IMG/VR virus record: IMGVR_UViG_3300007346_000025
Span: 1 to 64,000 of that record
Direction: 5' to 3' (one strand)
DNA: 64,000 bases
Source of the DNA: a virus
This document shows positions 15,201-40,097 of this stretch, piece by piece; positions within the stretch are counted from its first letter, which is position 1, and each line of letters opens with the position of its first letter. Below the pieces are notes generated by a model. That model was not told the origin of the DNA. It did no database searches and saw nothing but the letters and a program-made list of their open reading frames with translations. Position numbers and translations under genes: made by a program.

Positions 15201-15455
15201 GCACAATATGCAATTGATGGAACAGGAGTAACATATACAAATCCATACTATGATAATTACTCAATTTCTTTTACACAATTACCAAGTGGAGATATAGAAT
15301 ATAAACAAACAATTCCAATGTGGAATCCAAATACAAAGAGTTATGTGGATGTAGGAGCATCTGCTGTATTATCTGGACAAGGTTTACAACTTCAAAAGTT
15401 TAGAAATAATTTCTGGACTCAAGTTGCAGAGATGAATGAAAAAAATAACCCATGA
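12294..15455 (+). CDS. 1053-aa putative ejection (internal virion) protein
   Basis: Helical/coiled-coil composition; Gly/Ala-rich hydrophobic hairpin (GLAAWTAAGASFGLMGG...GAFIAGVGYLG, about 14370-14500); lies upstream of the virion RNAP. Confidence 0.6.
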   Translation: MAKYPQGVSSFIPQYQPYQVDFNYVNNMLAIKQDQYDRNWKAINKVYGQLYYADLTNPANIQKKEQLEKQIDFNLKRVAGLDLSLDQNATQALQIFKPFYEDKSLMYDMAFTKNAKMEKLTGESYRTATDEKIREQAWSEGIKAIDYRIDEFRNSPIDDIFSIPSPKYVPYQNVSKKAMAYAKELGIKVKDFGFTPDGRFIIEQQNGQPLVGPLYKMFMSAFGNDESIMDVYRTQAYVNRKDYMYANKDKLGSLEAAEAEYLNTKLQGYKAITQERYNLFKNQDNTYTKNIQSLERRIASGNKDPRVADQLENIRKAQQENQVLLAKYQKSIEVMDDGISRTANTQGGAPSKDINDLRYKVDFLEPSYMLEQDLRDAAESYATTTSERTIKTNQFKLQEERAAQARSLAILKDKLDTNRLILKYKLDSGEYDLVEQDNQKFLVPKKELNEVEPIKTEGGEGFTKQSNESQQEAQKKQEEVERTRNEQSVKSMFSTILQLHESGDMSDEEFFSITQDLGMSERWNRRHPTKEAFNFGFPSNSDSKNDRRRKLENYSSLDINDMSPFSIAEVTAGFKNWITKKNKLPEYQNNGNFQNVINNFNNIEDIGEGLIAKHDLKVKYAEETSRLLNKEYKTNLGKYLFDSDGNMRDDITITQMMVNDGLVVDADGNKIGVEGGNDNAYGTQNRAWLGTPKGLAAWTAAGASFGLMGGPFAEVTVPAGAFIAGVGYLGSSFGTALYDKIVQGDDPNVLAYVKGEKDGWEYNRSVKDALEFAKESFGDLQEKNMIKTPLYGYSNTGGGKFLTSSGRITVMPGAFGTDNFKRYSQLNNAFKNLSYTKDETRASVSGYSENDWNTATDEKLNSVTQSILKDLYEYSKNKKNKDNKFTLDFHPVANGSLNYSAVTIDIPEKIAEKYKMKYEGKENESGFLSSQVYDKLITNGLTLITKSSNFAGTDLYDKAFMDPVENRVRAQYAIDGTGVTYTNPYYDNYSISFTQLPSGDIEYKQTIPMWNPNTKSYVDVGASAVLSGQGLQLQKFRNNFWTQVAEMNEKNNP

Positions 15456-21400: not shown

Positions 21401-21487
21401 GATGCTCTTTCTGAAATTGAAAAACAAGCAGAAAAGAAATCTTTGAAAGACTTAGATAATGACTTATTAGATGATATAGATTGTTAG
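15452..21487 (+). CDS. 2011-aa putative ejection protein with hydrophobic segments and a degenerate PD-(D/E)xK-like domain
   Basis: Hydrophobic LGAAVLAPFTGGAS and IFASGFFMGFLGGG segments; LAGQIDLLVAD near 20423; adjacent to the RNAP gene. Confidence 0.6.
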   Translation: MMEEMDLNQSLSQETNDLYSGVTDFNEYFPISPSEPPTVTNLGTQNYITGSAPGNLPSQVPKNPAYNFDDHKKAMQNYMWNFAQQNAYDPNAYGKIQSYDLGPTGNAYYRRYAASGLDVMDELGFFPTKDNEQTWNDNTSWTDDFSRMITNSFGTLFYEGVVSGPKSLSRWLQGADFFDVDPEAAMNYERASAIGYSSRKGAGAFTSNLVMNFGYTAGIISEIMLEELGAAVLAPFTGGASSAAVTANAARRLNRLSHIDMSTLRVAKGFDASMDGARQFGNVLTELNDINNARKTYEAVKTSNNMLRGEKFFSNYFVKTLNPATQTVSELYDIYRAQDNLAGFASMSRTLGAFYRDIRTINMARSESALEAGMVQNKVFEDLYNKYYAENGEVASDEEMRNMMNQAHAAGIETSMYNFPLIYATNKVTFSNLLSKGKISNYINQSIRELGEVEAGRFGKLGKVVYNQSTKQFEFWKSGLKSWWKGWRADPFYKSVGKTVGYFKANISEGIQETFQEVIADAAEKYYVETYDSDLVQKQMYKNGQLPYLNITGEYFAKGFERFNPFTTAEGLDIFASGFFMGFLGGGMDKVINNTFIRANRIVQPEKYKEYKEKKLEITRDLVNSLNGQGVSNFINSRMWDAGVQSKAAAAKRKGNKKELEDAENEAFIAHFTVLSENGVLDQYLDGLLSLNKLGDEEFIDAMDNSITAEQIPQAKQKITDIVDRAKKLESKYNYYKEKYPSPVDMKLFDPGASEDYTEAYIMNQAWEYATKQAVFYNESFENTMQRMKDIMELQYNERPVSKMTKRQSDVLFVPKLLSNEIGLLQNEIDALSELDDPASKELLKTKKKELNALIKYKEKFDSFDRYYHRGRYIEGVKEKLSKERGGVEITNEEASAYILEALGVDEATEEKELKLISELETAYKEYLRGISEVEDDYIFTDGIDTAFERLLDYYKLDNESRTLAEGINLLNDPMGYINLVERNKQWMTDLYSRRSEYYEKLVKAQLEQQENNALLNALADEGIFVSVDDFKKWIDFRIPPKEFYDQARGIVIPEGSPTYDKYYFLFERVAKLSEDTSTEIVEDTMDTALKNELGRLDLEKQAKIDSLPKMTVREDLSEVLPNRGKTMGIRRIAGQIPIGNYADATYMDQDVEEVLTFYKDSNGNLFYVVDGNVTNQVESNLAYKFTKAQVFNFAEKPDQVVVDNLEKDYEELKNAVKERYAKAKENLKQDKQAEKEKVYTPDTDLDEMPNSLKKELYELFKKEEFDKLPEEVRVNMKYNQEQNLFVKFIQSNLAAKEVIDNYNKKQKATKATAPTGEKNDFTFKFLGKEVNTKDLTAVELRSYQRRLKQTISGLTEKQRDNSITPEEKTELANAKVVSIDIEKLIKTRSKNELSPELQEAVKKVEDIEAKQENLITTELGVVVDNVVHRPVTQVTIDSTQKNAANIDAKKADVEKYKGKSKFSYTIQGNNVYLAPSLSVENNHEELKNTIFDFLNILSKNKDLKYLEGGIKRVIESSRTWYPFSVLGDYLAGRYNTTIDKVISQFKSADFTQNELDVLKYSLENRTSPYAEQTTLEQSSTTPQSTANESISFINEQLDNLFTKDTRPVFDETKISREAFDNLFGDNGIFTTLKKREENGEIYITSRNLKVYDTDLKLAGQIDLLVADTKKNLTIVKVDLRTKEQWNAFDKKNNDQLLPQTLNANLLQRMTGVAPKVALMPIEIITDKSGKITSATKPSRENLLDTEFLITLDKNLVKDQAEGIVSAVKPVPEIQPTVQMPADAQSSDDQQSPAVESEGDPVDPKDAYKSENERITSEDIAEKLKSVTTEPQLLKLKIQVNLDIAEGKILPEDIDKITEMLDNKDLSLSEEIDPKISPDNMIKGTQLVAKSLIFTDKNQTEIFAEEDDTVVITSTNKKEGTVTVQPLGKKTRLKLTRDELNNLFTEKEAVMEAKEKPTTKPDKESKANVVETLDAVDTFVADQDALSEIEKQAEKKSLKDLDNDLLDDIDC

Positions 21488-21490
21488 ACT

Positions 21491-24400
21491 ATGAAAATTA
21501 CATGTGCATTAAGCCAAAATCAAATTAAGAATCTATACAGTAATGTGTATGGTAACATGCTCAGCTCATTAAAAGAAGATACTCCTTTTGATGTTAATAC
21601 ATACATGGCAAGTGTATTTGATAAGATTAGCCAGAAGTCTAGTCCAGAAAATGCTGCTAAGTTTGTACAACAAATACCTAAAATGGTTTCTGTTGCTGCT
21701 AACCGTGAAGATTTATTTGACCTAGAAATTGACCTCAATGCAGTTAGAAAACTTGTAAAAGAGTTTGCTAATGAAGATACGGGAATTGAATCTGTAATGA
21801 AAAGATTTGCTCCTAAAAAATCTTCAAGTACTAAAAAAGAGTTAACAAATAAAAAAGCTAATGAAGCTTTTGATCCTACACAAACAGAGGATAAACCTGC
21901 AGAAACAAGACCATTATCATTAAAACCTTTCTCAATCTTTAATACAAGTTATCAAGAGTTTGAGGCAATTGATCCTAAAGCAAAAGAAGAAGGATACCAA
22001 GAAGTAGCAGATGAAACTAAAGAATTTATATATACTGCACTTGGTAAAATTGCTGCAGCAAATACTGATCTTGATAATGCTATGGATACCGCACAGTATC
22101 AAGGTAAAGAACTTAGACTTAAACCTATAGTTTTAGCTTCAGCTCCTGTTGAAATGCTTGATAAGTATTCTACAAGAATTAAAAATGTATCTACATTTTT
22201 TAGAAACTCTAATAAGAAAAACAATAGAGTAATTCAAGCCACTGAAATTATCTTAATGGCAATTTCAGATGAACAAGGTCAACTACTCTATTTTGATAAT
22301 GAAGGTAATATTGTAGATACTCCAGAACAAGGAAGAGTTGTTTATCAATTTTTAAGAAATGTAATTCAAGAGAATGGTAAATATGTAGATGTAAATATCT
22401 ATGGTTATTCTAATCAAATTGCATCACCTGAAGAAATATCTAAAGCTACTGGTGTACCAGTAGAAGAAGTTGCTAAAAATCAACAAGCTGACTTTAAAGC
22501 ATTGTATGATTATAAAAAATCTATCTTAGACGGTAATATAGCACTAGCACCATTAACAGGAATTAGTGAAGGAGTTTCTCCTAAACAATCTAAACAAATT
22601 ATAACATTAGCTAATATAAATCAATTTCCTTTTGGTAGTGATTCAATATTTAAATCTATTAAACCAGTTAAGACACCAAGAGGTATATTTAAAGATGGGG
22701 ATACTACAATTACAATTGAAGGTACTGAATATAAAATTGATAGACCAAATGCTACAGATGACATTATTAATAAAGTAGCTGATGTATTTAGTAATCCTAA
22801 TATATCTAATAAACAAAAATACAATTTCTATTTACAGTTTTTTTCAAAAAAAGCATCTCCATATACAAGAAGACATAATGTAGAATATGCTGAATCAACA
22901 GATGAATTAATTTTTACTTATTCTCCCACTACTTATGCTGAAAAATATTCTAAGTTTCAACCAATTGATAATTTAAATACTCCTGAAGCTAAAGAATTAA
23001 TTGTTGATATTTTAAAAAATGCTTCTGGTACAAAAGGAAAGTACTTTTCTGCTAAGATGAATTATGATGAGACTAATTTATCTAAAAATGGTTTTCTAGA
23101 TTATAACTTAGAAACAAGAACAGTAGATGAAGAATTTAGTAATTATATTGAATTACTAAAAACATTACCAAGAACTACTATATACTTTAGTGAATCTAGT
23201 GATCCTAAGAAGTTCAATGCATATATGAACTTTAGAATCCCAACTGAATTTATTAAAAATGTAGAAAAAGCTAAAGAAAATCCTGCTTTAGTAGAACCTT
23301 CTCCAACAAGAAAACAAAAAAATATTCTTGTTGATTATTTAAAAGGTCAACCTAAAATTACTCAGAATCTTAAATTAAATGTATCTGCTACCACTAAAAA
23401 GGGAATGGAAAATATATCTAATGAAGATTCTGAAATAAAAAATATAGATGAATCTAAATTTAAGAGACTAACTAATACTAATGAAAGTGAAAATGGATTT
23501 AGTGTTGAAGATGGTATTCTAAGAATTAGAGTTGGTGGATTAGATGTGTTTGGAAGAACTGGTGGTGCTACTCAAATAAGTTTAAAAGTACCTGAAGGAT
23601 TTAATCCAAATCTTTTTGCTGAAAAACTTAAGGACATAAGTCATGAAGGAGGAATTACAACACCAGAAGCTGTAAATCAAGTTATTACTGATATTAAAAA
23701 TGCTCTTAATCCAAATGTAACTACTGATATATCAAAGCAAGGTGTTGTAAATACTTCTGCTGCAGGCAATGAATTTGGAACTTTTAATATTACTTCTCCA
23801 GTAACAGGAGAATCACTTGTAGTTGCATTAGATAAAAAGTTTTTTAAAGAAGCTCCTTTATTAACTGTTGGTACACCTGTTTCATTAGCATTAACAACTT
23901 CTGAAACAGAAGATATGTATATCCCAGATATTATTGAAGTTAGAAATTCTGAAGGAAAAACTATTGGTCGTGTAATGGAAACAGACTATGGTAAAAAAGA
24001 AACTCCATTAGATAATTATTATAGAGAGCTTAAGAAACAAAGAAGTAAAACTATTGAGGAAAAAATTGAAGAAAGTACTAATACAAAAGGTACTGCTAAT
24101 CCAAAAGATGGTTTAGCTGGTAAGTTTTTCTTAAGAAGTGGACATTTGCAATATGATGCAACACCTGAGCAGGTTAAAAAAGCAGATAGTTGGTGGAATA
24201 CTAGTGATTTAAATAAGTATTTATCTTTTGAACAAGGAGTAGCAATTGTTAACTCAGATGCATTTGCAAGATTTATTGCTTATGGTTCTATTCTGAATGG
24301 TAAGTTAGGGATGATACAAATTGCAAATAAAGGTTCAATGGTAGATATATACCATGAAGCTTGGCATGGTTTCTCTCAGTTATTCTTAACACCTGAAGAA

Positions 24401-27400
24401 AAAACTCGTCTTTATAAAGAGGTACAAAGAAAGTTAGGTAGAAATAAAAAACTTTCATTTTTTGATATTGAAGAAATTTTAGCAGAAGACTTTAGAACTT
24501 ATGCTAAAAATCCAAAGGCTCTTGAAGATAGTCCTGAAAGAAATTCAATCTTTAGAAGAATATTAAATTTCTTAAAAGAGTTATTGGGTATAGGGTCAGT
24601 TACAAATGTAACAGATATTAAAAAAGTAAGAGAACTTTATAATAATCTTTACTTTAATGAAAATCTAAATCAATACACACCAAGTATTGATAATGTAATG
24701 TTTGATCTTCTCAATAGAAATTCTGGACTTCAAACATTAGCAGATGAAAATATTCAAGCTTTAAATAGACAAGATGCAACCACTGTAAAAAATTCAATGG
24801 ATAGTATCATATCTAAACTTACTGATAATTTATACTCAGAAAGAAAAGAAGATATAGAGCAATTGGGTCAGAACAAATCAGCAACAACTAAATTATTAGA
24901 AGATCCAAGAAATAGAAATGCATTGTATTCTTATATCTTTGATCAACTTGACACAAGAAGAATTGAATTACAAGATCAACTTGATAACCTTGAAGATGAT
25001 ACTAAAAACTTTTTAGAAAAACAAAAGTTAGAAAACAATATTAGAATTCTTACTGCTGCATTAGATAACTGGGGTAATCAATCTAATGGTATGATTAAAT
25101 ACCATATAGAAAACTCAGACTTTAATCTTCTAAGAGAAAAGTTTGTAGAAATGACACCTGAACAAGAAGATGCTGTAGAAGATGTTGAAGATACTGATAC
25201 TGAACCAACTGCTGCTGAAGATACTGAAAGAGTAGGTGATAAAAAAATTGGTGATAGATCTTTGCTTGAGTTAGCAGATAAGGAAGTAGTATATATTCTT
25301 AAGAGTCTATTTAAAAAAGATAGATCTGGTAAAGTAATCTTAAATGAACTTGGATTTGAAGAACTTGTAGATTTTAGAAGTACTTGGAATAATGTTGTTA
25401 GAACTATTGGTGGTGAACAAGATCCTATTGAACAATATAAATTATTAAAGGATGCTATCAAAATTCACCCGGAGTTTGAACAGTTGGTAAATTTTAAATT
25501 AGCAGATCCTAATCCAGACTCTGAAAATGCATCTAATAATTTATATGAAGCTAAAGCTACTACAGCATTTTGGCAAACATTTAGTAAACCAAGAGTACCA
25601 CTTTTACAAAGCACTATTTTTACAAATGGTATAACTCAAATTACAGAAGCTTCAATTGAAGCTGTAGATATATTAAGAGGTTTTGAAAATAAATTTAAAG
25701 CTGATATTAATAATGCATATATTATAAGAAGGAATGAAGATAATGTTCCTATGCTTGCACTCCAAGCATTAGTAGAAGATTTTTCAGATAAAAATGGTAA
25801 TCTTGATGATACTAAATACTATGAGTTTGCAAGAAGATTAGGTATATATCTTGATGATATTACTATAATTAAAAGAGCACTTACAAAGAATCAAAAAGCA
25901 GCAGAAGAATATGGTCTTCCTTACATTTTTAAAACAGTAAAAAAAGTTGCTGATTTAGAAGTAAATCCAAATGCCACTGAAAAGCAATTAAAATTTGTTG
26001 AAGATTTTAAGAAAAATCCTATTTTCTATTTAAGAACACAAATTCCTGCAGGAATAATATCTAATAAAGAAGAAACTCAGAAATATGCACTTAAAAAATT
26101 AGCAGAATTACAATCAAAATATGGATTAGATACTTCTAATTTTGGGGTACTTAATGCAGAAGGTAATACAGTATATGAACTTATTGAAAAGAGTACAGCA
26201 AGTAAAATTGCTTATGCTATAAATAAAGCTGAAAAACTTTCTGATCTATGGAATTCTAGTACTCTTAAATACATGAGTTATTTAAATCCAGCTATTAATA
26301 CATTTACAAATAACTCTAGATTTCTTAAAACAATCTTTGACTTTAATGATCCTGAGTTTACTAAAAGATCTGATAAAGAATTAGAATTATTTCTTTCTTC
26401 TGGTACTCAACAAATTGTTAATGAGGAATTCGGAATAAAAGATGGAAATAACACAACTTCATTAGATACAACTAGTAAGTTTCTTCAAGAAATGAACTCT
26501 ATGCTTAAAGCTGGTGTACAAGAATTCATTCGTCATGCATCTAAAAGTTCTGCATTTGGATTAAGAGTTAGCGGTGATATTATTGGTAGACCTGGTAAAC
26601 TAGATAGTGATCCTAGACTTTGGATTGATATAGATATGTTTGCTGATAATACTGCTGACTCATATGCATTAAAGACACATATTGTACCTTATATTGCAAC
26701 TGAAGCCAATAGAATTTATAAGTTTAAACAAAATAGAACTGAATTTGAAAAATATCAAGGATATAATAATGAAACTCCTAGTGGTAAAATGGCTGGAGAA
26801 GTATTTACTGCATTTGATAATGTATTAAGACCTTCAACTAAACAAGCAATATATTCAGCAATTGATAATGCAATACTTAATAAAGAATACTTTGATTTTA
26901 TTTCTTTTATTAAAACTGATCAAACAGGATTAGCTGATAAAATTAGAACTGATGTATTAGATTATTTTAATGAACTAACTGAAGAAAACTATAATATACT
27001 TCAGGAGACCAATTATATTAGTCCTGATATAATCAATAGACTTAAAAAATTTAATTTATCAAAAGAAGAACAAGATAAATTACTTACTAGAGCTTATACA
27101 TTTAACTCTTGGATACATAATTTTGAAACTATCAATCTTATGTATGGAGATATGGCACAGTATAATCATATTAAAGAAGAGTTACATAAAAGAAATACTG
27201 GTTTAACTTCAACAGGTAGATCTTTTAGAACAGACATAGCTGCTCAGAATTTAGTTAAAGGAGCACTTAGAAAAAATTCTTATGCTGAGAAAAAAGGATT
27301 TAACTATGTAGAATATGATGGTACACTTAATACAGCTATCATTCAAGATATAGAAAGATCATCTGTTTACTTACCAGTTATTGAAAAAGCTTTAATTGAA

Positions 27401-30400
27401 GATTATACAAATAAGCTTAAAGAAACAATAAAGGATCCTGCTAAACTTACTGAAGCTGTAGAATATAGAGTTAAGAAGGACTTAGATGCCTACAAGAAAA
27501 TGGTAGAAGGTGATGGTCAAGGGTGGGTTACTTTTGATACTTATAGAATTCTTAAGAATCTAGAGAATGCTTGGTCATATGAGCAAGAAGAATTATTTAC
27601 TAAAATAACTGATGGAGAATTTGTCTCTCCTACAGAAATTATTCAAATGTTCCCAGTATATAAAATACAAAACTTTGGCCACTTAGCTAATACAGGATTG
27701 CCTGTAAATGCTATGCATAAGTTTGCACTTGCTCCATTAATACCATCTATGATTGAAGGATCAGATCTTCAGTCTTTACATGAACAAATGATGGCAAATA
27801 ACATTCAGTATGTTACATTTCAGTCTGGTTCAAAAGTTGGTTCTGTTACTTCAGAAAAAGATTCTAAAGGTAAAGCAGCAGCAGACATCATTTATAAAGA
27901 TGATGAAATGAAAAATCTCAATAGAGATATTAATTTTACTCCAAACACTATTTACGTAGATTATCTTAAAAATGTTACAAATGTAAATAGCTCATATAAA
28001 GAAAAAGCAACATTCTCCACACAGTTAAGAAAATTAATCTTGGGGTCAATGTATCGTGAAGGTAAAATCATTAATCCCAATAATGAAGCAACTGTAAAAG
28101 AATATGAAAAAACTGTTGATGAGTACACTAAACTTTTAAAATTTGAGTTACTTAATGAAATTGGGTATGAAGAAGTAGACGGTAAGTATATTGGTAATCT
28201 TACAAACTTTTTAGATTTAGTTCAAAGAGAGTTAGGTAGAAGAAAATTACCAGAACACCATATTGAATTTGTTGGTCAAAATCTAGATAGCACATTAAAG
28301 ACTGATTTATCATTACACTTAAGAGCTGATGATATAGAAAAAATTCTAGTTAGTCTTATTGAAAAAAGATTTATTAAACAAAAAGTAAAAGGTGAAGCTT
28401 TAGTACAAGTATCCAGTGCTATGACAAATGGAATCTGGTCCACACCAACATTTAAAAAAGCAACAGCTGAAGAAATTAGAAAGTATATTGGCACTAATAA
28501 CTTACCTTTCTATAATCCAAGTAAAGATGGTACTTCAGCAATGAAAGTAGCAATTGCTTTACAGGGAGACTTTATAAAATTATTGAGAAGAAAAGATGTT
28601 GCAGTAATTGACACTGTTGATGGAAAAAGAACTCTTAATAAAAAAGCTAGTCTTGCTAAGTTAAATCAACTTATAAAAGATGAAGCATGGTTAGAAAATA
28701 ATAGAGATTTAATTAGAATGTCTGCTGTACGTATTCCAGTACAGGGTCTTAACTCTATGGAGTTCATGGAAGTCTATGAATTCTTAGATCCTGCAGCAAG
28801 TAATATTATTATTACACCAACAGAAATTGTTGCTAAATCAGGATCTGACTTTGACGTTGATAAACTCATCACTTTTATGCCTAATATAGATAATAGAGGT
28901 ATGTTTATTAAATCTGGTATGTCTGAAGAACAATTCCAAGATTTTGTAAAAAGAAATAAAAACAATAAAGATAGAGTAAAAGAAACAATTAAAACTCAAA
29001 AATCTGCTCTTGAAAATAAACTTATTACAACTATTAATAATATTCTTGCATTACCAGATAACTATGCAAATCTTGTAAGGCCTAACTCTACATATCTACT
29101 TAAAGATATTGCAGATAAACTTCAAGATTTTGTATCTGAGTATGATAGATTTAAAAATAAACTTGGTCAGGAATATGTAACAATAACTGATAAAGAAGAT
29201 AAAAAAGTAAAAGTTATTAGTCCTACAAGAACACTTGAAACTGGATACAATCTTCATAAACATGATGTAAACTTAACTGGTAAGAAAGTATTAGGTATTA
29301 CAGCTATTGAGAATTCATTAAATCCTATTCTTAATTCTTTGGGTGCAGCAATGCCAAAAACATATAAGCATTCTTATTATGATAATGCTATAAAGAAATG
29401 GGTAGAAACTGATACAACTTATAATACCAACTTGTATTTGCCACATAGAAAAATGGCAGATGGTAGAATTTCTCTTTCACATACTGAAAGCTTAGATGGA
29501 GATTCAATTTCTGATGTTCTATCACAAATGATGAATGGTCTAGTTGACGTAGAAAAAGATGCATGGATATTCTTTATACAGGCTAATTTAGAAATTGCTC
29601 CTACTTTATTGTATTTAATTAAAGCAGGTGTACCAAAAGAACATGCAATCATGTTTGTTTCTAATCCCCTTGTTAGAGATTATGCTAAAAATAAAAGGCT
29701 TTACAATAGTGCTTATTCTGAATTATCAGGTAGAAAACTTGATGATAAATCTTATGCTCAATACCAAGCTGCTACAGATGTAATCATTAGTCAACTTCCA
29801 ACACTTATTGAAGATCAGTTATCTAATATTAGAGATACTGAAACTATATATGTAAGAACAGGACGTTTTAATCCATACTTACAAGAAATGGAGTATGAAG
29901 ATATTCCAATGACTAAGTTGCAACTAATTCAAAAAGTAAAAGACAAAAATTTTGCTGAGTCATTTATTAATGTGCGTAAGGATAGTAAGAAAGGTGGGAT
30001 TATATTTAATAAACCATCTATAAGTAATAAAAAGTATTACTTAGACACTAAGTTCTATACTCAAGCATATATAAATAAAAATAAAGAGTTTGACTTAGAT
30101 CTTATGAAAAGAGTTATTCTTGATCCAAAGTCTTCAAAATATAGAGGAGCAGCAATGGCTATGTTTATGCACTTTATAGAAATTGAAAAACAAATCCGTG
30201 GTCTCCAAACATTAAAAAGACTTGCTAATCCAGATACTAGAACTTCTAAAACATTAGAAGAAGTAATTAGAAGAGGTGTATCACTTGAAGAACTTAAAGA
30301 ACTTTCTAAAGTAGATCCTGAGTTAGTAAGAAAATTAGTTGAAGAATCAATTCTTGGAAGCTTCTTTGATAATAAACTCATTGGAGAATTAGTAAAACCA

Positions 30401-32581
30401 TTGTTTCCACTAAGAAATAATGATAAGGTTACTAATTATGTAATTGCATTGCTTCAAACAAAAGCAGGATCTCTAGTTAAAAAATATGGTACTGGTCCTG
30501 AAGCAACAAGAGCATTTATTTCAGAATATAAAAACTCTATTGTAAACTATGTCTTCCAAAACTATATGTCAAACTTTATTGACGGTAAAGGAAACATAGT
30601 AAATGTTCCTACAGAGTATAAAGAAATGCCTGTAAAAATTAAAAAAGGAATTAAGAATGGAGCTCAAGTAGTTGATAATGTTGTCTATATAGATGAAGCT
30701 AGAATTTCTAAAGACTATGCTGAAAAATTATTTGCAGCAGAATCTGAAGCAGAAAATAGCTATAGAGCCCGTGGTCTTAGACCATTTAGAGCAGCAGAAA
30801 ATGTTTTTCCAACTGAATCTAGCTTCTTTAAATATGTAGTAGAAAGAGAGTATCAAAGATCTATGATACCTTTAGAAAAAGCATTGGAAAATAAAACATT
30901 TAAATATCTTAGAAATGTACTTAAATCATCTATTAAAGATGTTAAAACATTAAATGAACAAACTTATGAGGCATTTTTAAATCAAAGAGCTATGATCTTT
31001 GCATTTAATAGAGAAGCTCTTATGAAAACTATTAACTATTCTTATTCAGATCAGTTAATGGCATTAATTAGAGAATTCTCACAACTCAAAGATAAGTACC
31101 CAATATTAAATCAACTTACTAAACCTGCACTTAAAACAGGTGAAAAAGTAATCTCATTAAATGACTCCAGAATGTTAAAAGATCCACAGCTTGCTGAGAT
31201 CTATTATCAGAACATTAAAGATCTTGGGGATCCTACAGTTAAAAAAGTAGCTTTAGAATCAGACAATGAAAGAATAAGTGAGATGTTTGGTATACTTCCA
31301 TTAGTAGCTGTCTACCAACACGGTATTGGTTATAGCAGATTTGGATTTAATGAAGCACTTCCTTATGATAAATTCTTAGAAGTAATGGATTCTGCATCAA
31401 AGATATTCTTAGAAAAACAACTTAATAATGCTACTCTAGGAAATATCTATTTAAAGCTAATGGATCCTAAGAATAAATTATTTAAAGACTTTGTGGTTTC
31501 TCCAAAAGACTTTAATAATCCTACAGAAGAAACATTAGAACCTGAAGTTACAAATGAAGAGGTTGATGTTGAAGAAGAGGTTATTACTACACCATCAACT
31601 CAATTAGATTCTGAAAATACAATTAATATCTATGCAGGTACAGGAGAGAATGCTGAGTTAAGTAATTTTGCTGTAAGACCTTTTTCTCCAGTTATTGATG
31701 GAGTAGAATTAGGCCAATTTAACACTGTTGAGGGAGCATTTCAAGCAATGAAAATACTTAACTACTCAAGTGATAGACAAGTACAGACTGATAAATATAA
31801 AGCATTAAAAACAGCTACTGGTGCAAATGCTAAAGCTATAGGTCAAAAGGTTACTGGTTTAGACAAAAAATCTTGGGATAAAAATTCTTCTAGAATTATG
31901 AAAGAATTATTATTACAATCATTCCAACAAAATCCAGACGTTCTTGCTAAACTTCTTGCTACAGGTAATGCTACTCTCACTCATGTAGGTACTGAAAAAC
32001 CTAATAGATGGACTACAGAGTTTCCTAGATTACTAATGGAAGTAAGAGAAGAACTAGGTGGTACTCAACCTACAGAAATAAATCAAAAAATAAAAGATAT
32101 TATTGATAAAAGTAATTTAGAAAAAGATGAATATGAAGTAGTATTAGTTAATGGTGTTCAAACTTTTGTTGATTTAAGATTAATGCCAGAAAGCATTAAA
32201 AAAGGATATGGTGTATACTATTCTTTACAGAAAGATGGTTTACTTAAAAGAGCGGGTAAAAAAATAATAGTTCCTGGATATGAAGATATACAACTAATAT
32301 ATGATCAACTTGATGGTTCAATAATAGAATTAAGCACAGGATTGTTAATTCCAACACAAGAAAAAACACAAAGTAAAGTTATAAATGAATTACAGGATAT
32401 GTTTGAATTTAGAAATATTAGACTCGTATTAGAAAAATCTGATAAAATAACTGCTAATGAACCTAATACTGTTATCTCAAGTTTGGAAGGTCTATCTACT
32501 CAACCTACTCAAGAAGAATCTAAGAAAAATGCACCGGAAGGTCTACCTCCAATTGACAGATCTATAGACTCTTGTAGTTAA
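21491..32581 (+). CDS. Virion-packaged DNA-dependent RNA polymerase (crAss-like, phi14:2 gp66-like) with zincin and NADAR domains
   Basis: Catalytic GSDFDVDK at 28841-28864, preceded by RIPVQGLNSM; GDGQGW motif; HEAWH at 24353-24367 with downstream EEILAE; NADAR-like region about 31620-32060. Confidence 0.88.
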   Translation: MKITCALSQNQIKNLYSNVYGNMLSSLKEDTPFDVNTYMASVFDKISQKSSPENAAKFVQQIPKMVSVAANREDLFDLEIDLNAVRKLVKEFANEDTGIESVMKRFAPKKSSSTKKELTNKKANEAFDPTQTEDKPAETRPLSLKPFSIFNTSYQEFEAIDPKAKEEGYQEVADETKEFIYTALGKIAAANTDLDNAMDTAQYQGKELRLKPIVLASAPVEMLDKYSTRIKNVSTFFRNSNKKNNRVIQATEIILMAISDEQGQLLYFDNEGNIVDTPEQGRVVYQFLRNVIQENGKYVDVNIYGYSNQIASPEEISKATGVPVEEVAKNQQADFKALYDYKKSILDGNIALAPLTGISEGVSPKQSKQIITLANINQFPFGSDSIFKSIKPVKTPRGIFKDGDTTITIEGTEYKIDRPNATDDIINKVADVFSNPNISNKQKYNFYLQFFSKKASPYTRRHNVEYAESTDELIFTYSPTTYAEKYSKFQPIDNLNTPEAKELIVDILKNASGTKGKYFSAKMNYDETNLSKNGFLDYNLETRTVDEEFSNYIELLKTLPRTTIYFSESSDPKKFNAYMNFRIPTEFIKNVEKAKENPALVEPSPTRKQKNILVDYLKGQPKITQNLKLNVSATTKKGMENISNEDSEIKNIDESKFKRLTNTNESENGFSVEDGILRIRVGGLDVFGRTGGATQISLKVPEGFNPNLFAEKLKDISHEGGITTPEAVNQVITDIKNALNPNVTTDISKQGVVNTSAAGNEFGTFNITSPVTGESLVVALDKKFFKEAPLLTVGTPVSLALTTSETEDMYIPDIIEVRNSEGKTIGRVMETDYGKKETPLDNYYRELKKQRSKTIEEKIEESTNTKGTANPKDGLAGKFFLRSGHLQYDATPEQVKKADSWWNTSDLNKYLSFEQGVAIVNSDAFARFIAYGSILNGKLGMIQIANKGSMVDIYHEAWHGFSQLFLTPEEKTRLYKEVQRKLGRNKKLSFFDIEEILAEDFRTYAKNPKALEDSPERNSIFRRILNFLKELLGIGSVTNVTDIKKVRELYNNLYFNENLNQYTPSIDNVMFDLLNRNSGLQTLADENIQALNRQDATTVKNSMDSIISKLTDNLYSERKEDIEQLGQNKSATTKLLEDPRNRNALYSYIFDQLDTRRIELQDQLDNLEDDTKNFLEKQKLENNIRILTAALDNWGNQSNGMIKYHIENSDFNLLREKFVEMTPEQEDAVEDVEDTDTEPTAAEDTERVGDKKIGDRSLLELADKEVVYILKSLFKKDRSGKVILNELGFEELVDFRSTWNNVVRTIGGEQDPIEQYKLLKDAIKIHPEFEQLVNFKLADPNPDSENASNNLYEAKATTAFWQTFSKPRVPLLQSTIFTNGITQITEASIEAVDILRGFENKFKADINNAYIIRRNEDNVPMLALQALVEDFSDKNGNLDDTKYYEFARRLGIYLDDITIIKRALTKNQKAAEEYGLPYIFKTVKKVADLEVNPNATEKQLKFVEDFKKNPIFYLRTQIPAGIISNKEETQKYALKKLAELQSKYGLDTSNFGVLNAEGNTVYELIEKSTASKIAYAINKAEKLSDLWNSSTLKYMSYLNPAINTFTNNSRFLKTIFDFNDPEFTKRSDKELELFLSSGTQQIVNEEFGIKDGNNTTSLDTTSKFLQEMNSMLKAGVQEFIRHASKSSAFGLRVSGDIIGRPGKLDSDPRLWIDIDMFADNTADSYALKTHIVPYIATEANRIYKFKQNRTEFEKYQGYNNETPSGKMAGEVFTAFDNVLRPSTKQAIYSAIDNAILNKEYFDFISFIKTDQTGLADKIRTDVLDYFNELTEENYNILQETNYISPDIINRLKKFNLSKEEQDKLLTRAYTFNSWIHNFETINLMYGDMAQYNHIKEELHKRNTGLTSTGRSFRTDIAAQNLVKGALRKNSYAEKKGFNYVEYDGTLNTAIIQDIERSSVYLPVIEKALIEDYTNKLKETIKDPAKLTEAVEYRVKKDLDAYKKMVEGDGQGWVTFDTYRILKNLENAWSYEQEELFTKITDGEFVSPTEIIQMFPVYKIQNFGHLANTGLPVNAMHKFALAPLIPSMIEGSDLQSLHEQMMANNIQYVTFQSGSKVGSVTSEKDSKGKAAADIIYKDDEMKNLNRDINFTPNTIYVDYLKNVTNVNSSYKEKATFSTQLRKLILGSMYREGKIINPNNEATVKEYEKTVDEYTKLLKFELLNEIGYEEVDGKYIGNLTNFLDLVQRELGRRKLPEHHIEFVGQNLDSTLKTDLSLHLRADDIEKILVSLIEKRFIKQKVKGEALVQVSSAMTNGIWSTPTFKKATAEEIRKYIGTNNLPFYNPSKDGTSAMKVAIALQGDFIKLLRRKDVAVIDTVDGKRTLNKKASLAKLNQLIKDEAWLENNRDLIRMSAVRIPVQGLNSMEFMEVYEFLDPAASNIIITPTEIVAKSGSDFDVDKLITFMPNIDNRGMFIKSGMSEEQFQDFVKRNKNNKDRVKETIKTQKSALENKLITTINNILALPDNYANLVRPNSTYLLKDIADKLQDFVSEYDRFKNKLGQEYVTITDKEDKKVKVISPTRTLETGYNLHKHDVNLTGKKVLGITAIENSLNPILNSLGAAMPKTYKHSYYDNAIKKWVETDTTYNTNLYLPHRKMADGRISLSHTESLDGDSISDVLSQMMNGLVDVEKDAWIFFIQANLEIAPTLLYLIKAGVPKEHAIMFVSNPLVRDYAKNKRLYNSAYSELSGRKLDDKSYAQYQAATDVIISQLPTLIEDQLSNIRDTETIYVRTGRFNPYLQEMEYEDIPMTKLQLIQKVKDKNFAESFINVRKDSKKGGIIFNKPSISNKKYYLDTKFYTQAYINKNKEFDLDLMKRVILDPKSSKYRGAAMAMFMHFIEIEKQIRGLQTLKRLANPDTRTSKTLEEVIRRGVSLEELKELSKVDPELVRKLVEESILGSFFDNKLIGELVKPLFPLRNNDKVTNYVIALLQTKAGSLVKKYGTGPEATRAFISEYKNSIVNYVFQNYMSNFIDGKGNIVNVPTEYKEMPVKIKKGIKNGAQVVDNVVYIDEARISKDYAEKLFAAESEAENSYRARGLRPFRAAENVFPTESSFFKYVVEREYQRSMIPLEKALENKTFKYLRNVLKSSIKDVKTLNEQTYEAFLNQRAMIFAFNREALMKTINYSYSDQLMALIREFSQLKDKYPILNQLTKPALKTGEKVISLNDSRMLKDPQLAEIYYQNIKDLGDPTVKKVALESDNERISEMFGILPLVAVYQHGIGYSRFGFNEALPYDKFLEVMDSASKIFLEKQLNNATLGNIYLKLMDPKNKLFKDFVVSPKDFNNPTEETLEPEVTNEEVDVEEEVITTPSTQLDSENTINIYAGTGENAELSNFAVRPFSPVIDGVELGQFNTVEGAFQAMKILNYSSDRQVQTDKYKALKTATGANAKAIGQKVTGLDKKSWDKNSSRIMKELLLQSFQQNPDVLAKLLATGNATLTHVGTEKPNRWTTEFPRLLMEVREELGGTQPTEINQKIKDIIDKSNLEKDEYEVVLVNGVQTFVDLRLMPESIKKGYGVYYSLQKDGLLKRAGKKIIVPGYEDIQLIYDQLDGSIIELSTGLLIPTQEKTQSKVINELQDMFEFRNIRLVLEKSDKITANEPNTVISSLEGLSTQPTQEESKKNAPEGLPPIDRSIDSCS

Positions 32582-32600
32582 AAATTCGTATATTTATATA
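32582..32600 (+). promoter_or_regulatory. TTCGTATATTTA promoter-like motif
   Basis: Same GTATATT core (G at 32588) as upstream of 6515, 12294, 56080 and 56775. Confidence 0.55.
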
Positions 32601-32611
32601 AATAAGAAACA

Positions 32612-35600
32612 ATGCCTTGTAAGACTCAAATAAAAAACAAACTAACCGATCAAGTATATGATCTCGCACAACCTGGTTTAGGTATGTCTCAAGCTAATGC
32701 TAATGCACTTGCTGCTGATATAAATAGAAGTTTTGGTACACAGGTGGTTAGATTTAATAGTTATGTTACAGATGATCTTCTTGAAATGGATATTAATATC
32801 CCGCAAAGTTTAATAGATGTTTACTATGATAATGAACTTATATTAGAAGCAAAAGAACTAGAACAAAGCATTGAAGATGCAAGAAGAGCTCAACAAGAAG
32901 ATGCTGCTCGTTCAGGTGTAGAATATACAGATCAGTATTTATTTGATAATTCTTCTGCGGTAGAGGTAGCACTCTCCAGAGAAGGTATTGAAAGAAGGAG
33001 AGATATACAAATAGCAGAAGCACTTGGTGAGAAATATAGTAAAGCATTTAATATTCCTTATCAAATTATTACTGAGGGTCAAGCTATAGAAATTTTATCT
33101 GAAAGCCCAACACCATATAAAGGTAATATGTCTTCTTTTTTCTATGGGGACATAGTATACTTTGTTGAAGGTAAGTTTAAAGCCGGTAATGTAGTGCATG
33201 AGTATGCACACCCTTTAGTAAAAGGTATTCAGTTTCAGAACCCAAAGTTATTTGATAACTTATTTAATCAACTTAGTTTAAGTGAAACCGGAAAAAGAGC
33301 TTTACAGATTGTAAAAGAAAGATATCCTGAACTTGGAACAGACACGGTAAGATTTAAAGAAGAAGCCATTGTTACTGGAATAGAATTAGATTCTAATAAA
33401 AAACTGGATGAGACTATCAAAGATGATAATTTATTCCAAAGATTCATTACTAATGTAATGGCAGCTATTAAAAAAGTTTTAAGGGCTTTATCCACTAAAG
33501 TAAATCTTAAATCTTTGGATTCTACCACTACTAGAGATGAATTAGTTGATATGCTATTAGATGAAGACTTTGTAATTGAAGATTTAGAATATCAATTGTC
33601 TTTACTTCCAGAGTTTAAAAAAGAAGCTGAAAGTTTTCTAAATGATCTAGAAAAAGCTAAGAGTAAGGAACTTCTAACTGTAATTGATAGATACTATGAT
33701 AATGTTAACTTTCAACTTAATAAATTACGTAAGTCTCCTGATCAAGTAAAAAGTTTATTAGAAGGAAAAGTTGGAGAAGATATTTTAAAAAATATTGAAT
33801 CTTTTCTATCCCCATATATTGTAAGAAGTAAAAACTTAACAGCTGAGGAAGTTGAAGAAATTATCAATGCTATTGAAGAGAGTGAAGAAGATACTAGACT
33901 TAGAGCAATTGCATTTGTAAACAGTTTAGCTGAATCACAAGTTTATGCTGAAAGAATTAATAATGCCTTAGAAAAATTAGTTAGTACAAAAAGACACCTA
34001 ACACCAGAAGGAATTACCCAGGTAATTTACTATAAAGATATGTTGTCTGGACAATTTGCATTTTTTGAAGAAGCTGTAAAACAGTTAAATATTCCAAGAG
34101 ATAGTTCTATTATTCAAAAAATTCTTTCTGTAAAACAAGTTATCAAAGATGATCTAGAAGAAATAAATGAGATAATGTTTGATTTTTCTAAAGATTTAAT
34201 GAATGATGCTACTAAAAATATGCAGGAAAATTTAAATGCAGAATTTAAAGATAGGATAACTCAAATACTTAAAGCAGACGGTTTTAAAGAGGCTGATATA
34301 AATAAATTTTTAAACTCTGTTATTGATCTGATTGATATAAATAATAAAAAAGATTTTAAGGAAAGTGAACTTAATGCTTTACTTCCAAAAGCTTCTCCAA
34401 GAATAAGGTATATATTGAGAGCTGTAAAAAAATATGTAACAAAACATATTACACCAGATGTTATTCAAGATTTTCTTACAGGATATACACAAGATATTGG
34501 TCAAATTGGTTCTAGTTTGGTTCCACTTGGTAATATTGATGATGTATTAGGTGCTGTATTTAACTTTATGAAAGATAGAGCTGCAGATACAGATGTAGAA
34601 TCTCAACGTCAGTTAAATCAAATGGCTGATAGTTTATATCCATTCTTAGAAAAAGTAGGTTGGAATCCAAATAAAACTACTCAGCTTGGTGACCTTTTAT
34701 TATTTAAGGATACTGTTAAATTAGAAAGAAATGGTGAGTTAGTTGAAAAAGAAGTATACTCTTTTATTGATAAGTTTAAAAACTATAGAGCTGATAAAAC
34801 CCAATTAGAGTATGATCTTAAAAGAGCTAGAGAATTAAAGGATCAAGAACTTATTGATAGAGCAACTGAAGCTTTATGGGATTTTCATGAAAAATATATG
34901 CATAGAACTTTTACTCCTGAAGTGTATAAAGTTTTAAATATGTTTAAACAAGAAAATACTGTTATACATCCAGAAACAGGTGAAGTTTTAACGGTATCTA
35001 AAGAACTTTCTATGGAAGCATACCGAGAAAGAAAGAAAGCTTTAGAAACTTTAAATACTCAGAATAAAAGAGACTTTACAGAACTTGATGATTTGTTTGA
35101 TTACAATGAAGCTAGTGTAGCTAAAATACAGTATGAAGAACTATATAGTGTTATTGAACCAACAACCGGTGAATACAAACAAGGTGATGAATTAAAAAAA
35201 GTATTACTTAGAATTAAGTATAGAAATGATTCTAGAAAATTCTATGACTTTGATGTAAACTATGATAGAGTTCAAAGAGATCTAGATAATTTTATTAATG
35301 TAAGACTTGCAGCTAGAGGTATTACTCTTGATGCTACACCAGAAAGATTTCAAGCAGAGTTAGATAGATATCTACGTAAAAATTTTAGAGTTGCATACAC
35401 TGAAGAATATTATAAAGAATTAACAGCAATTTTTAATGAAATAGCTAGAATTAATGCTAAAGCTTCTGAATCAGATGTATCTAAAAAACTTGCTAGTTTA
35501 TATGATCAAAGAAAAACATATGTAAATATGGTTACTGATAAAGATGGAGAACCTAATGCTCTTAATCTTGACAGAGTTCAAATTGATCAAGTTAAACTTA

Positions 35601-39923: not shown

Positions 39924-40097
39924 CTAACTTCCACAATATAAACATCCATCATCATCATCTAATTCTGGATTAGATTCAATCTTAGGATTAAGTTGTTTCT
40001 TAAGTTCATAAATCTGCTGCATAAGCTCTAAGTCCTGGAACATATCACCAGACAGCTTTGCTTTTAATTGTTCTATTTGTTCTTCTAGAGTTGCCAT
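39924..40097 (-). CDS. 57-aa protein ending in DDDDGCLYCGS (not in ORF track)
   Basis: Manual translation: MATLEEQIEQLKAKLSGDMFQDLELMQQIYELKKQLNPKIESNPELDDDDGCLYCGS*. Fits the gap exactly. Confidence 0.75.
   Translation of the reverse strand: MATLEEQIEQLKAKLSGDMFQDLELMQQIYELKKQLNPKIESNPELDDDDGCLYCGS

What the first reader, a model, noticed from the sequence alone, without database searches (positions are those of the whole stretch)
21482..32620. Giant ejected proteins carry Cys only at facing termini: possible head-to-tail linked chain
Seen: by my reading the four giant proteins (1053, 2011, 3696 and 1957 aa, about 8700 residues) contain only four Cys. They are the last residue of the 2011-aa protein (DIDC, 21482), residue 5 of the RNAP (MKITC, 21503), the penultimate RNAP residue (DSCS, 32573) and residue 3 of the 1957-aa protein (MPCK, 32618). 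Each C-terminal Cys is matched by an N-terminal Cys in the next gene product, and the outer ends have none. Established: crAss-like giant proteins are packaged in the capsid and ejected through the tail. Inference: disulfide or metal bridges join them in gene order into one chain for stoichiometric packaging and ordered ejection, released in the reducing cytoplasm.
Basis: partly seen in the sequence, partly recalled or inferred. Interest (0 to 1): 0.85.

Follow-up and report, generated by a model that had tools for sequence, protein, structure and literature searches.

The report
Terminal cysteine pairs chain crAss cargo
Three giant proteins of this crAss-like phage, with its particle-borne RNA polymerase in the middle, have no cysteine except one at each end that faces the next protein, a rule kept by hundreds of relatives that points to untested end-to-end disulfide links tying them into one thread.

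Summary
The four ORFs (1053, 2011, 3696 and 1957 aa) hold four Cys in 8717 residues. They are the last residue of the 2011-aa protein (A), residues 5 and 3695 of the RNA polymerase (B), and residue 3 of the 1957-aa protein (C). About 100 Cys would be expected. The 1053-aa protein has none and is outside the pattern.

The rule is conserved. It holds in 204 database homologues and in 80 IMG/VR loci. At 221 gene junctions, 143 have a Cys on both sides, 77 on neither, and 1 is discordant because of an assembly frameshift. It also holds in the cultured phages phi14:2 and crAss001.

Where modules are split off as separate proteins, a new Cys pair flanks the break. Where they are fused, the seam has none.

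An unrelated cyanophage, A4, shows the same pattern, and cryo-EM shows that pair as a disulfide.

Best reading, about 0.65: disulfides join A-B-C head to tail inside the virion. The link itself, ordered ejection and reductive release are untested.

I found no paper describing this for crAss-like phages. This scan has reported the same pattern on at least eight other crAss-like genomes.

The parts
15452..21487 (+). Protein A, 2011 aa, first chain member. Its only Cys is the last residue (motif DLLDDIDC).
   Evidence: C2011 is invariant in a 31-sequence alignment. 52 of 53 homologues have a Cys within 4 residues of the C-end, and 48 of them have it as the last residue. There is a weak blastp match to crAss001 gp47 (E 0.002).
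21482..21484 (+). TGT codon of Cys2011 of A, followed by the TAG stop at 21485-21487.
21491..32581 (+). Protein B, 3696 aa, the virion RNA polymerase and middle chain member. Its only Cys are residues 5 and 3695.
   Evidence: blastp to phi14:2 g066 gives E 1e-23, and to cr118_1 gp14 E 3e-28. tblastn hits fall on annotated Crassvirales RNAP subunits. C5 is invariant and C3695 is at least 90% conserved in 25 homologues.
21503..21505 (+). TGT codon of Cys5 of B (MKITC).
   Evidence: All 107 of 107 homologues with a complete N-terminus have a Cys at positions 3-12.
24353..24367 (+). HEAWH (HExxH) motif of B, residues 955-959. It marks a module that lies in protein A in crAss001 and crAss002.
   Evidence: The motif is invariant. 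Its positions are compared across phages.
28847..28861 (+). DFDVD catalytic motif of the two-barrel RNAP, residues 2453-2457.
   Evidence: D2453, D2455 and D2457 are invariant. The DFDxD motif is named in the abstract of 10.1101/2020.03.07.982082 (listing).
31649..31984 (+). NADAR domain in the C-terminal accessory region of B, residues 3387-3498.
   Evidence: Pfam PF08719, E 7e-13. PDB 2b3w (YbiA), E 1e-3.
32573..32575 (+). TGT codon of Cys3695 of B (DSCS, then the TAA stop).
   Evidence: All 120 of 120 homologues have a Cys within 13 residues of the C-end, 118 of them within 5.
32612..38485 (+). Protein C, 1957 aa, last chain member. Its only Cys is residue 3 (MPCK). It has HEYAH at residue 196, a LysM domain at 1648-1685, and a hydrophobic segment near the C-end.
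   Evidence: 29 of 31 homologues have a Cys at positions 3-7 and none has a C-terminal Cys. blastp to crAss001 gp49 gives E 6e-9.
32618..32620 (+). TGT codon of Cys3 of C.
12294..15455 (+). Cys-free 1053-aa protein upstream of A. It is probably cargo but lies outside the Cys-pair chain.
   Evidence: The + strand ORF that directly precedes A is Cys-free in 69 of the 71 IMG/VR loci that hold both (L069 and L070 have two internal Cys). The count includes 5'-open ORFs and, in L066, the first piece of a split A. Their homology to the window's protein was not tested.

Best explanation
A (2011 aa), the RNA polymerase B (3696 aa) and C (1957 aa) are translated separately and packed into the capsid as cargo. 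There, or on exposure to an oxidising environment, the C-terminal Cys of A bonds to Cys5 of B, and Cys3695 of B bonds to Cys3 of C. The result is one unbranched thread of 7664 residues, roughly 0.87 MDa by my arithmetic.

Every Cys sits within a few residues of a chain end, so each joint is barely wider than a polypeptide. It can therefore pass the portal and tail channel with the unfolded chain, one protein drawing the next. All other Cys have been purged so that no wrong link or loop can form. Inside the cell, the reducing cytoplasm would free the polymerase.

Shown here: the pattern, its conservation, its parity, and the way it tracks break points.
Inferred: the bond itself, its timing, the direction and order of ejection, and reductive release.
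For: 1. Pattern and statistics in the window.

2. Conservation in database homologues.
- B family: 120 of 120 have a C-terminal Cys, and 107 of 120 an N-terminal Cys. The 13 without one are 5'-truncated calls, because their first residue aligns to position 23-1398 of an 85-100% identical full-length relative. Only 4 of 120 have an internal Cys.
- A family: 52 of 53 have the C-terminal Cys.
- C family: 29 of 31 have the N-terminal Cys.

3. IMG/VR loci. 80 loci were examined; the 72 that carry a DFDxD-bearing ORF fall into 54 clusters at 90% identity of the catalytic segment.
- Of 221 junctions, 143 have a Cys on both sides, 77 on neither, and 1 is discordant. The discordant one is a poly-A frameshift with a true N-terminus MVNC.
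- 225 chain members total 565,359 aa, with 22 internal Cys against 292 terminal Cys.

4. Extra chain members carry Cys at both ends: the 252-307 aa proteins in L021, L024 and L042, the 655-aa protein in L039, and the 762- and 300-aa proteins in L048. They are homologous to segments that in other loci lie inside B or C, which have no internal Cys there.

5. The fused A+B proteins of cr118_1 and cr50_1 lack an N-terminal Cys and lack a pair at the seam, yet keep the B|C pair.

6. The YHEA[WF]H module lies in A in crAss001 (2157 of 2341) and crAss002. It lies in B (955) here. The break point has therefore moved about 1100 residues, and the pair moved with it.

7. In crAss001, gp47 lies on the opposite strand from gp50 and gp49, and the termini still keep the rule.

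8. phi14:2 g067, g066 and g065 follow it exactly, with Cys at 1797 (last residue); 3 and 2179; and 3. Their virion presence is annotated from MS/MS.

9. Precedent. A-4L gp27 (1717 aa) has its only Cys at 1715, and gp26 (1114 aa) has its only Cys at 5. The cryo-EM paper reports a disulfide between exactly these residues (PMC12002296, passages read).

10. Disulfides do occur in crAss001 virions, between tail hub and ring proteins (PMC10172136, passages read).

11. Both TGT (263) and TGC (29) are used. Gaps at the junctions range from -11 to +36 nt, and only 30 of 143 junctions are in the same frame. The constraint therefore acts on the protein, not on the DNA.
Against: - No experiment shows the bond in any crAss-like phage.
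- Published crAss001 and phi14:2 work, as far as I read it (passages only), does not mention these Cys. gp66 was purified and crystallised with DTT or TCEP.
- The host cytoplasm is reducing and gut phages live in an anoxic habitat, so when and how oxidation occurs is open.
- Sequence alone cannot exclude other pairings, such as an A-A dimer, a C-C dimer, or a B ring or polymer.
- crAss001 gp50 and crAss002 gp33 keep 1 and about 6 internal Cys respectively, so the purge is not absolute.
- L066 has protein A in two ORFs with no Cys at that break. This may be a frameshift or a true exception, and it was not resolved.
- Authors have proposed that fused forms are cleaved after assembly. If that is true, covalent continuity may not be what matters.
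Confidence: 0.65

Rival explanations
1. The terminal Cys form disulfides, but not in the head-to-tail hetero order. Examples are A-A and C-C dimers with B circles or B polymers, or links to another virion protein such as the portal or a ring protein.
For: Sequence cannot fix the partners. crAss001 virions do have disulfides among tail proteins.
Against: The parity rule argues against it: the first member never has an N-terminal Cys, the last never has a C-terminal Cys, and inserted members always have both. The pair also appears at a split and is absent at a fusion. Both are what a replacement for a peptide bond predicts, and not what a hub or a homodimer predicts. In A4 the observed bond runs from the C-terminus of gp27 to the N-terminus of gp26.
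Confidence: 0.12
2. The facing termini dock non-covalently or through a bound metal. The Cys act as ligands or contact residues, not as a disulfide.
For: A's tail is acidic ([DE]LL[DE]D[IL][DE]C) and could add carboxylate ligands. The cytoplasm is reducing at assembly.
Against: Each junction has only two thiols. No conserved His or further Cys is seen near any of the four termini in the terminal sequences. The strict purge of every other Cys is the signature of avoiding wrong disulfides, not of metal binding. In the A4 precedent the pair is a disulfide.
Confidence: 0.08
3. The Cys are free thiols used for something other than joining. Examples are a redox switch of the cargo, or a recognition or cleavage determinant for the HExxH protease modules.
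For: HExxH modules are conserved in B and C. Fused forms are proposed to be cleaved.
Against: This does not explain why the C-terminal and N-terminal Cys always come in matched pairs across a gene boundary, and never singly (143 against 0 true discordant junctions). It also does not explain why the outer ends lack them.
Confidence: 0.08
4. The pattern is a by-product. It could be general Cys avoidance in ejected proteins plus chance, or a DNA-level signal at gene junctions (translational coupling, or read-through of the in-frame TAG between A and B).
For: Cys suppression in ejection proteins is known for Schitoviridae (PMC11445570). In the window, A and B are in the same frame and are separated only by TAG ACT.
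Against: - Schitoviridae proteins have essentially no Cys at all, whereas these keep exactly the terminal ones.
- Placement by chance has P about 2.6e-12 in the window alone, and it repeats in hundreds of relatives.
- Junction gaps range from -11 to +36 nt, only 30 of 143 junctions are in the same frame, and 130 of 143 stops are TAA.
- In crAss001 the A and B genes are not adjacent.
- Both Cys codons are used.
Confidence: 0.02

Closest known systems
Cyanopodophage A4 / Anabaena phage A-4L ejection proteins gp27 and gp26 (Saffermanviridae; PMC12002296)
   Same: Two large consecutive ejection proteins. The only Cys of each lies at the facing termini: gp27 Cys1715 of 1717, and gp26 Cys5 of 1114. 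Cryo-EM shows these two residues disulfide-bonded inside the capsid (passages read).
   Different: It is a single joint, not a chain of two to four joints. No RNA polymerase is involved. The proteins form a pentameric pre-ejectosome ring. There is no detectable sequence similarity to the window's proteins (best blastp E 0.5). In the passages I read, the authors describe the bond as a stabiliser and do not state a general rule.
phi14:2 gp67-gp66-gp65 and crAss001 gp47-gp50-gp49 (Crassvirales virion RNAP and its two associated cargo proteins)
   Same: Orthologous trio (blastp; same DFDxD motif). They are virion proteins by mass spectrometry (annotation). They follow the same terminal-Cys rule.
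   Different: They are shorter (B is 2180 and 2412 aa, against 3696 aa here). The A|B break lies on the other side of the HExxH module in crAss001. Neither the preprint on gp66 (0 occurrences of cysteine or disulfide) nor the crAss001 atlas (0 occurrences of 'cysteine'; disulfides only for tail proteins) mentions the pattern.
Fused A+B proteins of Suoliviridae (cr118_1 gp14, 4946 aa; cr50_1 gp059, 4774 aa) and 'polyprotein' forms noted for crAss-like phages
   Same: The module order is the same: A part, HExxH module, RNAP core. The next protein still starts with Cys3, and the fused protein still ends with a Cys at -4 or -2.
   Different: A peptide bond sits where the window has a Cys pair. The fused protein has no N-terminal Cys and no adjacent pair at the seam.
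Schitoviridae (N4-like) ejection proteins: vRNAP N4 gp50 / DEV gp71, plus gp72 and gp73
   Same: They include a giant virion RNA polymerase that is ejected into the host. Cys is strongly suppressed, against 0.865% in the proteomes. This is explained as avoiding periplasmic disulfide formation (PMC11445570).
   Different: They have essentially no Cys at all, and so no terminal pairs. The polymerase is of a different type (the T7-like assignment is recalled, not tested here).

Membership tests
Crassvirales virion two-barrel RNA polymerase (phi14:2 gp66-like) | DFDxD catalytic motif | tested here: met
   DFDVD at residues 2453-2457. The three Asp are invariant in 25 homologues.
Crassvirales virion two-barrel RNA polymerase (phi14:2 gp66-like) | Sequence homology to characterised members | tested here: met
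   blastp to phi14:2 g066 gives E 1e-23 over 945 aa; crAss002 gp33 1e-14; crAss001 gp50 1e-9. tblastn hits fall on annotated RNAP subunits. phmmer against PDB sequences found only the NADAR part.
Crassvirales virion two-barrel RNA polymerase (phi14:2 gp66-like) | Packaged in the virion and ejected | not testable with these tools
   This is known for phi14:2 and crAss001 only (annotation). For this phage it is inferred from orthology.
Terminal-Cys disulfide joint between consecutive ejection proteins (as A4 gp27-gp26) | The upstream protein's only Cys is within a few residues of its C-end, and the downstream protein's only Cys is within a few residues of its N-end | tested here: met
   for the window. 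for relatives. for A-4L itself.
Terminal-Cys disulfide joint between consecutive ejection proteins (as A4 gp27-gp26) | Disulfide bond observed in the particle | not testable with these tools
   It has been seen only for A4. No structure or gel exists for the crAss trio.
Terminal-Cys disulfide joint between consecutive ejection proteins (as A4 gp27-gp26) | Sequence homology to A4 gp26 or gp27 | tested here: not met
   Best blastp E 0.5-0.7. This is a likeness of mechanism, not family membership.
Cys-free ejection proteins (Schitoviridae type) | No Cys at all in the ejected proteins | tested here: not met
   Internal Cys are purged (0 in 7664 residues of A, B and C), but four terminal Cys are kept and conserved.
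Single fused cargo polyprotein | A, B and C read as one ORF | tested here: not met
   There are three ORFs with stops TAG and TAA. The in-frame TAG between A and B is not conserved: L001 has a 4-nt gap in another frame, and only 30 of 143 junctions are in the same frame.

The most novel reading that the evidence does not exclude
The injected cargo of crAss-like phages is a 'virtual polyprotein' of about 1 MDa. Module order is conserved, while the places where the chain is cut into separate genes drift over evolution. At every cut a disulfide between two near-terminal Cys stands in for the missing peptide bond. The whole cargo, RNA polymerase included, then leaves the capsid as one thread and is unstitched by the reducing cytoplasm. 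The same device evolved independently in cyanophage A4, so it would be a general design rule for podophage ejection proteins.
Probability: 0.45. Interest if true: 0.9.

Novelty: new variant of a known kind. Interest (0 to 1): 0.8.

Why it matters
How podophages push hundreds of kilodaltons of folded protein through a narrow tail, and in what order, is an open question. The crAss001 atlas says only that the order 'is likely to be controlled' by packing and mutual interactions.

A conserved covalent stitch between cargo proteins would give a concrete physical mechanism for ordered delivery of the polymerase that starts infection. It can be tested at once on two cultured phages, phi14:2 and crAss001, with gels and mass spectrometry.

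It also gives annotators a simple sequence rule for recognising cargo chains, correcting start codons and spotting frameshifts. It explained crAss002 gp33 and L024 here. Finally, it shows how gene fission and fusion can be tolerated in giant proteins.

Tried and rejected
1. GenBank phage tblastn with the first 1000 aa of B and the last 999 aa of A found no match. Only the catalytic region reaches known Crassvirales.

2. PHROGs gave nothing for A, C or the 1053-aa protein. Pfam gave only NADAR and LysM.

3. Read-through of the in-frame TAG between A and B was rejected.

4. A DNA-level junction signal was rejected.

5. The apparent exceptions were checked.
- The 13 B homologues without an N-terminal Cys are truncated calls.
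- The L024 discordance is a frameshift.
- crAss002 gp33 'Cys35' follows Met33, so the annotated start is probably too far upstream.
- The L066 split of A without Cys was left unresolved.

6. Complex prediction gave 'no answer' (score 0.01). It used the last 250 aa of A with the first 600 aa of B, window sequences only and no alignment. This is evidence neither way.

7. Literature searches found no paper describing terminal Cys in crAss-like cargo proteins. Subscription journals and supplements were not visible.

8. My ORF script takes the first ATG. N-terminal Cys positions are counted from the nearest upstream Met, which favours small numbers. The junction count used the first 20 and the last 12 residues. 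Near-duplicate loci were not removed from the counts: L008 is the contig of L001, L041 is the contig of L003, and L018/L019, L037/L051, L060/L065 and L032/L075 are pairs.


Full report
**What is in the window**

One search lists a + strand block of giant ORFs. One search gives their Cys content.
- 12294-15455, 1053 aa: no Cys.
- 15452-21487, 2011 aa (here called A): one Cys, the last residue.
- 21491-32581, 3696 aa (B): Cys5 and Cys3695.
- 32612-38485, 1957 aa (C): Cys3.

The neighbouring 1146-aa ORF is also Cys-free. The 1824-aa ORF has two Cys. The 762-aa ORF has twelve in one cluster. Replication proteins in the rest of the window have 0.3-1.9% Cys.

**Is it more than chance?**

One search gives four measures.
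- In frame there are 4 TGT/TGC triplets. The other two frames of the same DNA have 98 and 498.
- Position-specific base composition predicts 96.8 Cys codons.
- Forty other ORFs of the same 72.8-kb contig have 1.18% Cys. That predicts about 102 Cys in 8717 residues, with Poisson P(<=4) = 1.5e-38.
- Four randomly placed Cys would fall one each within five residues of the four facing termini with P about 2.6e-12.

**What the proteins are**

B carries DFDVD at residues 2453-2457. This is the motif the phi14:2 paper's abstract names for crAss-like virion RNA polymerases (listing).
- B matches phi14:2 g066 by blastp (E 1e-23), cr118_1 gp14 (3e-28), crAss002 gp33 (1e-14) and crAss001 gp50 (1e-9).
- tblastn hits fall on annotated Crassvirales RNAP subunits.
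- B also carries a NADAR domain near its C-end.
- C matches crAss001 gp49 (E 6e-9). It has HEYAH at residue 196 and a LysM domain at 1648-1685.
- A matches crAss001 gp47 only weakly (E 0.002).

The phi14:2 and crAss001 counterparts are virion proteins by mass spectrometry (annotation; PMC10172136 passages). The window is therefore a divergent crAss-like phage. The three proteins are the RNAP and its two associated cargo proteins. Packaging in this particular phage is inferred, not shown.

**Conservation in protein databases**

*B family.* A search with the catalytic region of B returned 746 hits, of which 120 are listed. In these 120:
- All have a Cys within 13 residues of the C-end, 118 of them within 5.
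- 107 have a Cys at positions 3-12, mostly as MK[IV]xC.
- Four have one internal Cys each.
- The 13 without an N-terminal Cys are truncated gene calls. Their first residue aligns to position 23-1398 of a full-length relative that is 85-100% identical.

*A family* (53 homologues):
- 52 have a Cys within 4 residues of the C-end, and 48 have it as the last residue.
- None has an N-terminal Cys.
- One has an internal Cys.

*C family* (31 homologues):
- 29 have a Cys at positions 3-7.
- None has a C-terminal Cys.
- Five have one internal Cys.
- Two have no Cys and have different N-termini.

**Conservation with gene context**

An alignment of 25 B homologues retrieved 80 IMG/VR loci with 10-kb flanks. 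Of these, 72 carry a DFDxD-bearing ORF. They fall into 54 clusters at 90% identity and 40 clusters at 70% identity of the catalytic segment.

I called + strand ORFs of at least 250 aa. I then scored every junction between consecutive ORFs with a gap of at most 300 nt.
- 143 junctions have a Cys in the last 12 residues upstream and in the first 20 residues downstream.
- 77 junctions have neither.
- 1 junction has only the upstream Cys.

That one, in L024, is a frameshift in an A-run. The true N-terminus reads MVNC.

The 225 chain members total 565,359 residues. They hold 22 internal Cys and 292 terminal Cys.
- N-terminal Cys lie at positions 3-6, with one at 14.
- C-terminal Cys lie at positions -1 to -10.
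- The codons are TGT 263 times and TGC 29 times.

Junction gaps range from -11 to +36 nt. Only 30 of 143 junctions are in the same frame, and 130 of 143 stops are TAA. The signal is therefore in the proteins, not in the DNA around the junction.

**Natural experiments**

1. *Longer chains.* Extra proteins between B and the last member carry a Cys at both ends. They are the 252-307 aa proteins in L021, L022, L024, L030 and L042, the 655-aa protein in L039, and the 762- and 300-aa proteins in L048.

2. *Split against fused.* The C-terminal halves of these small proteins are homologous to the last 115-140 residues of B in L015, L068 and L074. Their N-terminal halves in L042 and L048 match residues 1-170 of C in L018. 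The 655-aa protein of L039 matches residues 3401-3851 of B in L046. The fused proteins have no internal Cys at all. So a pair is present only where the chain is cut.

3. *Fused A+B.* cr118_1 gp14 is 4946 aa, with HExxH at 1734 and DFDxD at 3209. cr50_1 gp059 is 4774 aa. Both lack an N-terminal Cys and lack an adjacent pair at the seam. They still end with a Cys (-4 and -2), and the next protein starts with Cys3.

4. *A moved break.* The YHEA[WF]H module lies in A in crAss001 (2157 of 2341) and in crAss002 (1814 of 2020). It lies in B (955) in the window. The distance from this module to DFDxD stays near 1500-1670 residues. The cut has moved by about 1100 residues, and the Cys pair sits at the cut in each lineage.

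5. *Broken gene adjacency.* In crAss001, gp47 is on the + strand while gp50 and gp49 are on the - strand. Even so, gp47 has its only Cys at -3. gp50 has Cys5, Cys1334 and a Cys at -9. gp49 has its only Cys at 5.

6. *phi14:2.* g067 has its only Cys as the last residue. g066 has Cys at 3 and 2179 only. g065 has Cys3 only.

**Precedent and literature**

- The PNAS paper (PMC12002296, passages read) reports a disulfide between Cys1715 of gp27 and Cys5 of gp26 in the cryo-EM map of the pre-ejectosome.
- In the GenBank record of A-4L, gp27 (1717 aa) and gp26 (1114 aa) each have exactly one Cys, at those positions.
- These proteins show no sequence similarity to the window's proteins. The likeness is one of mechanism.

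For context:
- Cys suppression in ejected proteins is known for N4-like phages and is explained by transit through the periplasm (PMC11445570, passages).
- The crAss001 atlas reports disulfides only between tail proteins, and the word 'cysteine' does not occur in it.
- The phi14:2 RNAP preprint mentions neither cysteine nor disulfide. [quoted passage not shown]
- Five searches found no paper on terminal Cys in crAss-like cargo. Subscription journals and supplements were out of reach.

**Mechanism**

The best-supported reading is that each facing pair forms a disulfide in the particle, joining A, B and C head to tail.
- The closeness of every Cys to a chain end keeps the joint thin enough to pass a channel that admits only unfolded chain. 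This is an inference. The crAss001 paper proposes partial unfolding of cargo during extrusion.
- The purge of all other Cys prevents wrong links.
- C carries peptidase-like, LysM and hydrophobic segments. That fits a role at the cell envelope. Which end leaves first is unknown.
- Release of the polymerase by cytoplasmic reduction is an inference.
A non-covalent terminal contact might come first, as in A4, where a C-terminal helix sits in a cleft of the partner.

**What speaks against it**

- No direct evidence exists for any crAss-like phage.
- The partners cannot be fixed from sequence.
- Some lineages tolerate internal Cys (crAss001 gp50 has one; crAss002 gp33 has about six).
- L066 shows A in two ORFs without Cys at the break, and this is unresolved.
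- Fused forms may be cleaved after assembly.
- A co-folding attempt with window sequences alone gave no verdict and counts neither way.

**Verdict**

This is a new variant of a known kind. The single A4 joint is known. A conserved, order-wide chain of several joints around the virion RNAP has not been described in the papers I could search.

The same pattern has already been reported by this scan on at least eight other crAss-like genomes. This window is a further, independent instance. It adds the moved-break comparison and the 221-junction count.

Noticed in passing
window 24353-24367 (B residues 955-959): An invariant YHEAWH (HExxH, zincin-like) module lies in the N-terminal third of the RNA polymerase protein. 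The homologous module lies in protein A in crAss001 (gp47, 2157) and crAss002 (gp32, 1814), and in the fused gp14 of cr118_1 (1734). C has a second HExxH (HEYAH, residue 196), as phi14:2 g065 does (245).
   Followed up: partly
window 11238-11429 (762-aa ORF 9945-12233, residues 432-495): Twelve Cys in a CxC/CC repeat with a period of about 10 residues, within an otherwise Cys-free protein of the structural block. This may be a metal or disulfide mini-domain. A first-stage note (e1-6182322) also records it.
   Followed up: no
window 31649-31984: A NADAR domain (PF08719) sits in the variable C-terminal region of B. Homologues carry other accessory domains there instead or as well (PF13532, PF18760, PF13671, PF12694, PF25176 and PF09397), and B length varies from about 3100 to 6400 aa.
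   Followed up: no
window 39924-40097 (- strand): A 57-aa ORF ends in DDDDGCLYCGS, an acidic tail with CxxC, just downstream of the cargo block. A small redox-active protein next to a putative disulfide chain may be worth a look. First-stage notes also record it.
   Followed up: no
window 21485-21493: A and B are in the same frame and are separated only by TAG ACT. Read-through would fuse them. This is not conserved: L001 has a 4-nt gap in another frame, and only 30 of 143 junctions are in the same frame.
   Followed up: yes
L066 2791-9998: Protein A is in two ORFs (1613 aa and 789 aa, overlapping by 4 nt) with no Cys at the break. It is either an assembly frameshift or a real exception to the pair-at-every-break rule.
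   Followed up: partly
L005 (crAss002) 16137-16241: The annotated start of gp33 seems to lie 32 codons too far upstream. Met33-Ser-Cys35 would give the usual MxC N-terminus, following a 170-nt gap after gp32. gp33 also keeps about six internal Cys, so the purge is weaker in this lineage.
   Followed up: partly
L017 7386-26531 and L074 9998-25768: B reaches 6381 aa and 5256 aa, with Cys still only at the two ends. These are the largest single links seen. What is fused into them was not worked out.
   Followed up: no
window 1004-6478: The 1824-aa ORF upstream has only two Cys, 12 residues apart (452 and 464), and the 1146-aa ORF at 6515-9955 has none. Cys depletion extends over most of the giant-gene block.
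   Followed up: no
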